Source: Escherichia coli
Lineage (GTDB): Bacteria > Pseudomonadota > Gammaproteobacteria > Enterobacterales > Enterobacteriaceae
Reading direction: 5' to 3' (one strand)
NCBI RefSeq assembly: GCF_048403405.1
Contig: NZ_CP183129.1
Length of the DNA: 64,000 nt
Part shown: piece after piece, positions 30,932 to 31,638 of the stretch
Position numbering within the stretch: position 1 is the first letter of the stretch
Layout of the letters: every line of letters begins with the position of its first letter
Notes under the pieces: generated by a model
What the model saw: the letters and a program-made list of their open reading frames with translations, nothing else
What the model was told of the DNA's origin: nothing
Databases searched by the model: none
Made by a program: the position numbers and the translations under genes

Positions 30932-31638
30932 AATATCCTCCGGCATAGCCGGAGGTTTTTCAAATGCGCCTATAAGGCTCTCTTACCAGCCGCGCCCTAA
31001 CAGGCGCACACGATCTGACATTTGCATCCAACTTCGTTACTTACGGCCCGTAAACGGGCTGCCCGGATAGGGAATCGATAACTGCTCTCCCATTTTATCC
31101 TCTTCAAGCTGGTGCTTTATGTAATCCTGTATCTTCGCCGTGTTCTTACCCACCGTATCGACGTAGTACCCTCTGCACCAGAACTCCCTGTTCCTGTATT
31201 TGAATTTCAAATCACCAAACTGCTCGTAAAGCATCAGACTGCTTTTCCCTTTCAGATATCCCATAAAGCCGGATACGCTCATTTTGGGCGGGATCTCCAC
31301 AAGCATATGGATATGATCTGCACAGCATTCAGCTTCCAGAATCCGTACACTTTTCCACTCACACAGCTTTCTCAAAATACTGCCTATTGCTCTACGCTTC
31401 TCTCTGTAGAACACCTGTCTTCGGTATTTTGGCGCAAAAACTATGTGATATTTACAGTTCCATCGGGTGTGCGCTAAGCTCTTTTCGTTCCCCATTGGGA
31501 CCCCCTTTTGATTTCTTGTTTGACACTTGCAGTTGCCAGACCGCAAGGTGTTTTAACAAATCAAAAGGGGTTTTAATAACTGGCTTAAAGCTGAAAGCTT
31601 TCCGGAACCCCCAGCCTAGCTGGGGGTTTTCTGTGCAC
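30932..31638 (-). mobile_element. IS200-like insertion sequence (IS200/IS605 family), apparently complete; ends approximate (+/- ~10 bp)
   Basis: Encodes a 152-aa Y1 HUH transposase; an 8-bp-stem subterminal hairpin near each end (30937-30955 and 31608-31626) and a 13-bp stem occluding the tnpA SD; inserted in the A/T tract next to the rrn terminator; about 707 bp. Confidence 0.8.
31037..31495 (-). CDS. tnpA: IS200 transposase TnpA (Y1 HUH)
   Basis: 152 aa from ATG at 31493-31495: MGNEKSLAHTRWNCKYHIVFAPKYRR...CADHIHMLVEIPPK... (HuH motif HIHML, catalytic Tyr region); SD aaggggg; track ORF has a 17-codon extension. Confidence 0.9.
   Translation of the reverse strand: MGNEKSLAHTRWNCKYHIVFAPKYRRQVFYREKRRAIGSILRKLCEWKSVRILEAECCADHIHMLVEIPPKMSVSGFMGYLKGKSSLMLYEQFGDLKFKYRNREFWCRGYYVDTVGKNTAKIQDYIKHQLEEDKMGEQLSIPYPGSPFTGRK

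What the first reader, a model, noticed from the sequence alone, without database searches (positions are those of the whole stretch)
30932..31638. Complete IS200-like element inserted in the A/T tract beside the rrn operon terminator, between hdfR and tRNA-Trp
The hdfR to tRNA-Trp gap here is about 805 bp and contains an intact IS200-type transposase gene, whereas I recall no IS at this position in the K-12 reference. Its left end abuts the A-run of the rrn terminator hairpin (31639-31668), which fits the family's reported preference for A+T-rich, terminator-proximal targets. The transposase ORF is uninterrupted, so the element may be active, and it sits between two highly expressed convergent units (the rrn operon and hdfR).
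Basis: partly seen in the sequence, partly recalled or inferred. Interest (0 to 1): 0.45.

Follow-up and report, generated by a model that had tools for sequence, protein, structure and literature searches.

The report
IS200C insertion behind rrnC terminator
This is an intact copy of the well-known small insertion sequence IS200C that recently landed just after the terminator of the rrnC ribosomal RNA operon; it is an ordinary strain polymorphism and disrupts no gene.

Summary
The hdfR to tRNA-Trp gap is 805 bp, against 95 bp in K-12. The extra 711 bp is a complete IS200C of the IS200/IS605 family. It is identical over 710 nt to copies annotated as IS200C in other E. coli genomes. It carries an intact 152-aa Y1/HUH transposase gene on the - strand, hairpins near both ends, and the 5'-UTR/STnc490 RNA region. 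Its transposase-proximal (left) end abuts the T-tract of the trpT/rrnC terminator. That terminator stays intact, and the element's right-end hairpin gives hdfR a new terminator-like hairpin. Strain MS 69-1, which differs by about 12 substitutions in 50 kb, has the empty site, so the insertion is recent. Six relatives with identical flanks have 11-20 further matches to the element, so IS200C copy number varies within this clone. Only 6 of 5,426 complete E. coli genomes carry an IS here. They show three junction registers, which suggests recurrent insertion. In 122 IS200-group copies from many taxa, 80% sit directly after a terminator-like hairpin plus TTNTT. Only 8% of random TTNTT sites do. 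The element and its target habit are already known, so interest is low.

The parts
30928..31640 (-). IS200C element. The 709-bp core is 30930-31638. The net insertion is 711 bp, because one 'AA' (TT in IS orientation) at either 30928-29 or 31639-40 belongs to it. The left end (LE) is at the high-coordinate side.
   Evidence: Filled versus empty sites at four loci. Identical over 710 nt to IS200C copies in four other records.
31037..31495 (-). tnpA: 152-aa Y1 HUH transposase with H61-I-H63 and Y125. It is identical to the gene annotated WP_000526135.1.
   Evidence: Y125 is the catalytic residue according to PMC4513863.
31606..31628 (-). LE subterminal perfect hairpin (AACCCCCAGC-TAG-GCTGGGGGTT in IS orientation). 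Published work describes it as a bidirectional terminator that shields tnpA. It is the presumed TnpA binding hairpin.
   Evidence: Sequence, fold, PMC4513863. The core 25-mer is exactly conserved in more than 120 loci.
31502..31570 (-). [quoted passage not shown]
   Evidence: RNA fold of 31480-31645 (-): -65.3 kcal/mol, z = -5.4. PMC4513863.
31505..31628 (-). Rfam RF01405 STnc490 match (IS200 Hfq-binding RNA region).
   Evidence: 146.1 bits against a gathering score of 56.
31487..31576 (+). [quoted passage not shown]
   Evidence: Inferred from the description in PMC4513863. Not measured here.
30937..30955 (.). Right-end (RE) subterminal hairpin CCTCCGGC-ATA-GCCGGAGG. On the + strand it is followed by TTTTT, which makes it a terminator-like site 70 nt after the hdfR stop codon.
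   Evidence: Terminator scan, both strands.
31639..31666 (-). trpT/rrnC intrinsic terminator: hairpin at 31645-31666 plus a T7 tract (the A-run on the + strand). This is the insertion target and it is left intact.
31673..31748 (-). tRNA-Trp (trpT), the last gene of the rrnC operon.
30028..30867 (+). hdfR, a LysR-type regulator convergent with rrnC. Its coding sequence is untouched.
52716..52961 (.). oriC (13-mer and DnaA boxes). It fixes the direction of the replication fork at the IS.

Best explanation
This is a copy of IS200C (IS200/IS605 family, IS200 group, tnpA only).

What is shown:
- The element's identity and its boundaries.
- The empty site in K-12 and in near-identical relatives.
- The recency of the insertion.
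- Its orientation relative to replication.
- The statistical association of this IS group with terminator-like flanks.

Inferred mechanism: the element transposed recently in this clone by the family's single-strand 'peel-and-paste' route. The Y1/HUH transposase TnpA binds the hairpins near each end of the top strand. It excises that strand as a circle and pastes it 3' of a short T-rich target (TTNTT|) on the lagging-strand template. Here the target was the T-tract of the trpT/rrnC intrinsic terminator, about 21 kb from oriC.

Consequences:
- The element lies co-oriented with and downstream of rrnC, behind the host terminator and then its own left-end terminator hairpin.
- The rrnC terminator keeps its hairpin and seven Ts.
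- hdfR keeps its coding sequence and now meets the right-end hairpin plus T5 as a terminator-like site.
- No gene or terminator hairpin is disrupted, so the insertion is probably close to neutral (inferred; no expression or fitness data).
- By homology to Salmonella IS200, tnpA is presumably kept nearly silent by the left-end terminator, the stem-loop that hides the ribosome-binding site, the antisense RNA art200 and Hfq.

Also inferred, by analogy with IS608: the single-strand mechanism itself, and target choice by pairing of the T-rich target with the A-run 5' of the left-end hairpin and/or by the terminator hairpin mimicking the right end.
For: Identity: Pfam and NCBIfam matches, homology to the solved IS608 and ISDra2 TnpA structures, HUH motif and Y125, and identity over 710 nt to copies annotated IS200C.

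Anatomy: hairpins near both ends, no terminal inverted repeats, an SD-sequestering stem-loop, and the Rfam STnc490 match.

Insertion: K-12 and the strains MS 69-1 and 4621 have CAGAT-A8-TCCTTAGC at this site. The window has A3-[709 bp]-A7. The same +711 bp pattern, with TT on both sides, appears at three other loci.

Recency and activity: the window differs from MS 69-1 by 12 substitutions and one 1-nt gap in about 50 kb, apart from the IS. Six relatives with identical flanks have 12-21 matching places each, meaning 11-20 places besides the flank.

Orientation: oriC lies at about 52.7-52.96 kb and GC skew agrees. The tnpA sense strand is therefore the lagging-strand template, as the family rule predicts (PMC5027513).

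Target: 98 of 122 unique flanks upstream of the left end are terminator-like, against 8 of 485 random 45-mers and 244 of 3024 random TTNTT sites. T is nearly invariant at positions -5, -4, -2 and -1.

Literature: terminators are enriched upstream of IS200/IS605 elements, IS200C sits in T-rich sites, and IS608 insertions concentrate in rrn operons.
Against: No transposition, transcription or termination was measured. The 2-bp 'AA' on both sides fits a cleavage-site/target model, but it fits a genuine 2-bp target duplication equally well. The association with terminators could come from selection (only silent, harmless insertions survive) rather than from targeting. One of the four chromosomal E. 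coli copies I examined (ehaB-iprA, L005) is oriented against replication if that strain is syntenic with K-12. The source genome itself was not available, so its copy number is inferred from relatives.
Confidence: 0.9

Rival explanations
1. The element is old at this site. The empty sites in K-12 and in close relatives would then come from precise excision, which this family can perform.
For: Peel-and-paste excision is precise (PMC5027513 abstract). Filled alleles exist in other lineages.
Against: Only 6 of 5,426 genomes are filled. All six relatives with 100% identical flanks have an uninterrupted flank at this site, two of them checked directly. The filled alleles have three different junction registers and different IS haplotypes. 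That pattern points to several gains rather than many losses.
Confidence: 0.04
2. The filled allele was imported from another lineage by homologous recombination and was not created by transposition in this clone.
For: The 3 kb to the left is 99.83% identical to the FDAARGOS_448 group, which also has a filled site.
Against: The flanks are closer to MS 69-1, which has the empty site: 3 mismatches in 30.9 kb on the left, and 99.78% on the right against 99.17% for FDAARGOS_448. The junction differs (A3 against A4). The IS differs at 31548, where the window has the consensus base and the FDAARGOS group a derived one.
Confidence: 0.05
3. The element now matters mainly as a host-used source of small RNAs (the processed 5'tnpA RNA and art200), as proposed for Salmonella, and not as a mobile element.
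For: The Rfam STnc490 region is intact. Published work shows that Salmonella IS200 5'tnpA regulates virulence regulons (PMC5435999 and PMC12594629, listed).
Against: The insertion is very recent and polymorphic, and copy number varies within the clone. That is how an active transposon behaves. No E. coli targets are known from the evidence gathered here. This reading does not exclude mobility.
Confidence: 0.1
4. The gene is a REP-associated tyrosine transposase (RAYT) or some other domesticated HUH gene and not an IS.
For: There is a weak NCBIfam REP_Tyr_transpos match at 32 bits.
Against: That score is far below the cut-off of 80, while transpos_IS200 scores 147.7. The unit is multi-copy, has defined ends and has a demonstrated empty site.
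Confidence: 0.01

Closest known systems
IS200C (E. coli) / IS200 (Salmonella Typhimurium LT2), IS200 group of the IS200/IS605 family
   Same: Size of about 707-711 bp and a single 152-aa Y1 transposase gene. A left-end terminator hairpin at about nt 11-33 and an SD-sequestering stem-loop. The STnc490/art200 region. No inverted repeats. T-rich target. Sequence identical to copies annotated IS200C.
   Different: Nothing about the element itself differs. Only the location is unusual: 6 of 5,426 complete E. coli genomes have an IS here.
IS1541 (Yersinia pestis / pseudotuberculosis)
   Same: The exact left-end hairpin 25-mer is shared. Copies show the same terminator-hairpin plus TTNTT context, at dozens of copies per genome.
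   Different: The first 8 nt of the left end differ (GTGCCCAG against GTGCACAG). Tandem head-to-tail copies occur in Y. pestis.
IS608 (Helicobacter pylori) and ISDra2 (Deinococcus radiodurans), the mechanistic paradigms of the family
   Same: Homologous TnpA (E = 4e-19 and 2e-16). Hairpins near both ends. Insertion 3' of a short specific sequence. Bias toward the lagging-strand template. rrn operons reported as IS608 hot regions.
   Different: Those elements also carry tnpB and use the targets TTAC and TTGAT. IS200C has perfect palindromic hairpins, a TTNTT target and a strong association with an adjacent host hairpin.
Group IIC (bacterial class C) introns and REP-targeting ISs, named from my own knowledge
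   Same: These mobile elements home to sites just after intrinsic-terminator or REP stem-loops, which keeps them harmless and transcriptionally insulated.
   Different: Their mechanisms are unrelated: retrohoming by a ribozyme and reverse transcriptase, or DDE / IS110-type enzymes.

Membership tests
IS200/IS605 family, IS200 group | Encodes a Y1 HUH (IS200-like) transposase | tested here: met
   Pfam PF01797, 130.7 bits against a cut-off of 23. NCBIfam NF033573, 147.7 bits against a cut-off of 55. PDB relatives are the IS608 and ISDra2 TnpA structures.
IS200/IS605 family, IS200 group | HUH motif and catalytic tyrosine are present | tested here: met
   H61-I-H63 and Y125. A Y125F mutant is listed as catalytically dead in PMC4513863.
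IS200/IS605 family, IS200 group | No terminal inverted repeats; a hairpin near each end | tested here: met
   Left-end hairpin at 31606-31628 and right-end hairpin at 30937-30955. The termini GTGCACAG... and ...ATATTTATT are not inverted copies of each other.
IS200/IS605 family, IS200 group | Inserts 3' of a short specific sequence that abuts the left end, without a true target duplication | tested here: inconclusive
   Four filled/empty pairs show +711 bp with TT on both sides, and the consensus before the left end is TTNTT|. This fits the model in which the right end also ends in TT. A 2-bp duplication of TT cannot be excluded from sequence alone.
IS200/IS605 family, IS200 group | tnpA only, with no tnpB or iscB | tested here: met
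   The 711-bp unit holds a single family-matching ORF.
IS200/IS605 family, IS200 group | Top strand lies on the lagging-strand template (a family tendency) | tested here: met
   oriC at about 52.7-52.96 kb, GC skew, and tnpA co-directional with the fork. Three of the four E. coli chromosomal copies examined agree.
IS200C specifically (ISfinder name) | Near-identity to the ISfinder IS200C reference sequence | not testable with these tools
   ISfinder is not available here. As a proxy, the element is identical to copies whose gene RefSeq/PGAP names 'IS200C family transposase' (WP_000526135.1).
IS200 regulatory RNA module (STnc490/art200, 5'tnpA) | Conserved sequence and structure of the 5'UTR / antisense region | tested here: met
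   Rfam RF01405, 146.1 bits against a gathering score of 56. Fold z-score -5.4, with the SD sequence paired. Expression was not tested.
RAYT (REP-associated tyrosine transposase) | Passes the NCBIfam REP_Tyr_transpos cut-off | tested here: not met
   32.2 bits against a cut-off of 80.

The most novel reading that the evidence does not exclude
IS200-group transposases may not simply prefer T-rich DNA. They may actively recognise an intrinsic-terminator architecture, a GC-rich hairpin followed by TTNTT, as a structural mimic of the element's own right end (hairpin plus ATATTTATT). That would explain four observations: about 80% of copies across distant phyla sit exactly behind host terminators; head-to-tail tandems form; the rrnC terminator was hit independently in at least two or three E. 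coli lineages; and the element stays transcriptionally insulated. Enrichment of terminators upstream of IS200/IS605 elements has been reported (bioRxiv 10.1101/2025.07.22.666184). As far as I could check, a right-end-mimicry targeting mechanism has not been shown.
Probability: 0.35. Interest if true: 0.45.

Novelty: already known. Interest (0 to 1): 0.15.

Why it matters
As it stands, this is a routine IS polymorphism. It could serve as a strain-typing marker and as a sign that IS200C is currently mobile in this E. coli clone, even though IS200 is reputed to be nearly immobile. The wider pattern is a modest lead for specialists. Near-universal placement right after terminator hairpins, and recurrent hits at the rrnC terminator, bear on how single-strand transposons choose harmless, insulated sites, and on engineering TnpA targeting.

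Tried and rejected
- I first considered that the hairpin at 30937-30955 was hdfR's native terminator. I rejected this because it is absent from the empty site and present in every IS200C copy, so it is the element's right end.
- I considered that the 169-aa TTG-start ORF (31037-31546) was the gene. The ATG-start 152-aa form matches the annotated protein and follows the Shine-Dalgarno sequence.
- The 121-aa + strand ORF at 31112-31477 lies antisense within tnpA. I did not pursue it and it is probably spurious.
- The RAYT reading was rejected on score.
- Exact-string lookup of empty sites failed for three loci because of SNPs. I replaced it with BLAST.
- Odaert et al. 1998 on IS1541 insertion sites (PMID 9422611) is not held in the library. 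What I recall of it is therefore not used as evidence.
- The copy number in the source genome could not be obtained, because the source is not in the E. coli collection with this insertion. Relatives served as a proxy.

Full report
**Observation**

hdfR (30028-30867, +) and tRNA-Trp (31673-31748, -) are separated by 805 bp. tRNA-Trp is the last gene of an rrnC-type operon: 16S, tRNA-Glu, 23S, 5S, tRNA-Asp, tRNA-Trp, all on the - strand. In K-12 MG1655 the same gap is 95 bp. Alignment shows one clean insertion inside the A-run that flanks the trpT/rrnC terminator hairpin. The feature is therefore real and is an insertion relative to the reference.

**Identity**

The - strand ORF 31037-31495 encodes a 152-aa protein.
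- It matches Pfam Y1_Tnp at 130.7 bits (cut-off 23) and NCBIfam transpos_IS200 at 147.7 bits (cut-off 55).
- It is homologous to the solved TnpA structures of Sulfolobus elements, IS608 and ISDra2.
- It has the HUH motif (H61-I-H63) and Tyr125. Ellis et al. 2015 mutated that residue to make a catalytically dead IS200 TnpA (PMC4513863).
- The weak RAYT match (32 bits, cut-off 80) fails.

Megablast against 5,426 complete E. coli genomes finds the element in 1,951 genomes at 80% query coverage or more. The gene is annotated there as 'IS200/IS605-like element IS200C family transposase'. The window copy is identical over 710 nt to four copies at other loci: ydcF/hrpA, ycgB/fadR, ehaB/iprA and a plasmid.

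**Anatomy, in IS orientation (the - strand of the window)**

The order of features is:
1. TT|GTGCACAG.
2. A perfect hairpin, AACCCCCAGC-TAG-GCTGGGGGTT (31628-31606).
3. A long stem-loop (31570-31502) that pairs the Shine-Dalgarno sequence AAGGGGGU.
4. tnpA.
5. A second hairpin, CCTCCGGC-TAT-GCCGGAGG (30955-30937).
6. ATATTTATT.

The left-end fold is much more stable than shuffled controls (-65.3 kcal/mol, z = -5.4). Rfam RF01405 (STnc490) matches 31505-31628 at 146 bits. This is the published IS200 layout: a left-end bidirectional terminator at nt 12-34, an SD-sequestering stem-loop at nt 69-138, and an antisense sRNA, art200 (PMC4513863). There are no terminal inverted repeats.

**Boundaries**

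I compared four filled sites with their empty counterparts: this locus against K-12, MS 69-1 and strain 4621, and three other loci against K-12. In every case the added DNA is 711 bp. That is a 709-bp core (30930-31638 here) plus an AA found on both sides. At this locus CAGAT-A8-TCCTTAGC became CAGAT-A3-[709 bp]-A7-TCCTTAGC.

In the family's cleavage model this reads as a target ...TT| followed by an element that itself ends ...TTATT|. A true 2-bp duplication cannot be excluded from sequence alone.

**Recency and activity**

- The 12.9 kb to the left is 100% identical in six complete genomes (TUM14771, GN02461, 4621, MS 69-1, TUM1226, OX030728). In all six the match runs on past the insertion point but does not include the IS. 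MS 69-1 and 4621 were inspected directly and have the empty site.
- Across about 50 kb the window differs from MS 69-1 by 12 substitutions, one 1-nt gap and the IS.
- Those six relatives have 12-21 matching places each, meaning 11-20 places besides the flank. Copy number therefore varies within a very tight clone.

This is good indirect evidence that IS200C is mobile in this lineage, although IS200 is described as transposing at a 'notoriously low frequency' (PMC4513863). The source genome itself is not in the collection with this insertion.

**Recurrence at this site**

Only six genomes carry an IS at hdfR-trpT. Together with the window they show three junction registers:

| Genome(s) | A's left / right of the core | Flank identity to the window | IS differences from the window |
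|---|---|---|---|
| window | A3 / A7 | (reference) | (reference; matches the consensus) |
| FDAARGOS_448, KY 1497 | A4 / A7 | 98.6% over 12.9 kb | 1 nt (derived base at 31548) |
| Survcare321 | A4 / A7 | 98.6% over 12.9 kb | 3 nt (including 31548) |
| MB20 | A2 / A8 | 98.1% over 3 kb | 5 nt |

PEC1020 and PEC1021 were not examined at junction level. They matched the query at the same identity and score as FDAARGOS_448.

(Sources.) At least two, and probably three, independent insertions hit the same terminator. Homopolymer slippage could account for the one-base difference between A3 and A4, but it does not explain the empty sites in the window's own clone.

**Target habit**

I scanned one genome per species for the exact left-end hairpin 25-mer. 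The scan returned more than 120 loci from very diverse taxa: Yersinia, Vibrio, Edwardsiella, Brenneria, Dickeya, and MAGs assigned to Oxalobacter, Mailhella/Desulfovibrio, Bacillota, Peptococcaceae and Saccharibacteria.

| 45-nt sequences tested | Terminator-like (GC-rich hairpin plus T tract) |
|---|---|
| Flanks directly upstream of the left end, unique | 98 of 122 (80%) |
| Random 45-mers from the same loci | 8 of 485 (1.6%) |
| Random TTNTT sites | 244 of 3024 (8%) |
| Random T6 sites | 112 of 1125 (10%) |

Mean folding energy is -18.6 kcal/mol for the flanks against -8.3 for random 45-mers. Positions -5, -4, -2 and -1 are T in 117, 104, 120 and 109 of the 122 flanks. Most flanks that failed the strict test are still visibly hairpins.

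[quoted passage not shown] Sequence data alone cannot tell whether this reflects targeting or survival of harmless insertions.

**Replication context**

oriC lies in the window at about 52.7-52.96 kb, marked by the GATCTATTTATTT 13-mer and DnaA boxes. The + strand GC skew changes sign near there. At 31 kb the fork therefore moves toward lower coordinates. That makes tnpA and rrnC co-directional with replication and puts the IS top strand on the lagging-strand template. This is the configuration the family prefers (PMC5027513). That paper also notes that IS608 insertions concentrate in rrn operons. Of the four chromosomal E. coli copies I checked, three have this orientation.

**Consequences at the locus**

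- The rrnC terminator keeps its hairpin and seven Ts, and it is still detected by the terminator scan.
- The element then adds its own left-end terminator hairpin before tnpA.
- On the other strand, hdfR now meets the right-end hairpin followed by TTTTT about 70 nt after its stop codon.
- No coding sequence or terminator hairpin is broken, so the insertion is probably neutral (inferred; nothing was measured).

**Verdict**

This is a known element (IS200C) in a known kind of place. The insertion is recent and the site is rarely occupied. The most novel reading still open is that terminator hairpins are recognised as mimics of the element's right end. Head-to-tail tandem copies in Y. pestis, with the junction ...GGAGGATATTTATT|GTGCCCAG, are consistent with that idea. 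It needs biochemistry to test.

Noticed in passing
window 52716-52961: oriC lies inside the window, marked by the 13-mer GATCTATTTATTT and two DnaA boxes. The + strand GC skew flips sign between about 48 and 56 kb.
   Followed up: partly
L015-L075 (MAG contigs from Oxalobacter, Saccharibacteria, Bacillota, Peptococcaceae, Mailhella, Desulfovibrio, Elusimicrobiaceae): The exact IS200 left-end hairpin 25-mer occurs in phylogenetically very distant genomes, usually about 90-130 nt from contig ends, which suggests a multi-copy repeat. The 8 nt between the cleavage site and the hairpin are specific to each taxon. This could mean wide horizontal spread or MAG binning artefacts.
   Followed up: no
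L077 ~270-345; L078 and L080 (two matches 710 nt apart); L124: Yersinia pestis carries head-to-tail tandem IS1541/IS200 copies, with the left end placed directly after the right end of another copy (...GGAGGATATTTATT|GTGCCCAG). This fits the idea that the right-end terminus is itself a target.
   Followed up: partly
window 31505-31628 (-): The Rfam STnc490 (RF01405) match is on the tnpA-sense strand and includes the left-end terminator hairpin. Published art200/STnc490 is described as antisense to the tnpA 5'UTR. The model's strand may not correspond to the antisense RNA.
   Followed up: no
window 30927-30929 / 31639-31645, and L001, L012-L014: The length of the A-run flanking the IS differs between filled alleles (3+7, 4+7, 2+8). 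K-12 also has one extra G (GGAGAGGG against GGAGAGG) about 15 nt upstream.
   Followed up: yes
window 31112-31477 (+): A 121-aa ORF runs antisense inside tnpA. It is probably spurious.
   Followed up: no
window 27455-27744, 12348-12447, 63263-63420: Other Rfam matches in the window: Rev39 5'UTR (in the ilv leader region), the TrxA 5'UTR thermometer, and the sRNA STnc410.
   Followed up: no
window ~17.7-18.1 kb (by alignment to MS 69-1, L135 17697-18146): A PemK/MazF-family toxin gene is annotated between rep and ppiC in the close relative MS 69-1. I recall no gene at this position in K-12, but I did not check.
   Followed up: no
NZ_CP095510.1 (GN02270), hit H62: In this genome the query matched in two pieces spread over 20.5 kb, against 13.4 kb of query. 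That suggests an IS200C copy or another insertion a few kb from hdfR but not at the same site.
   Followed up: no
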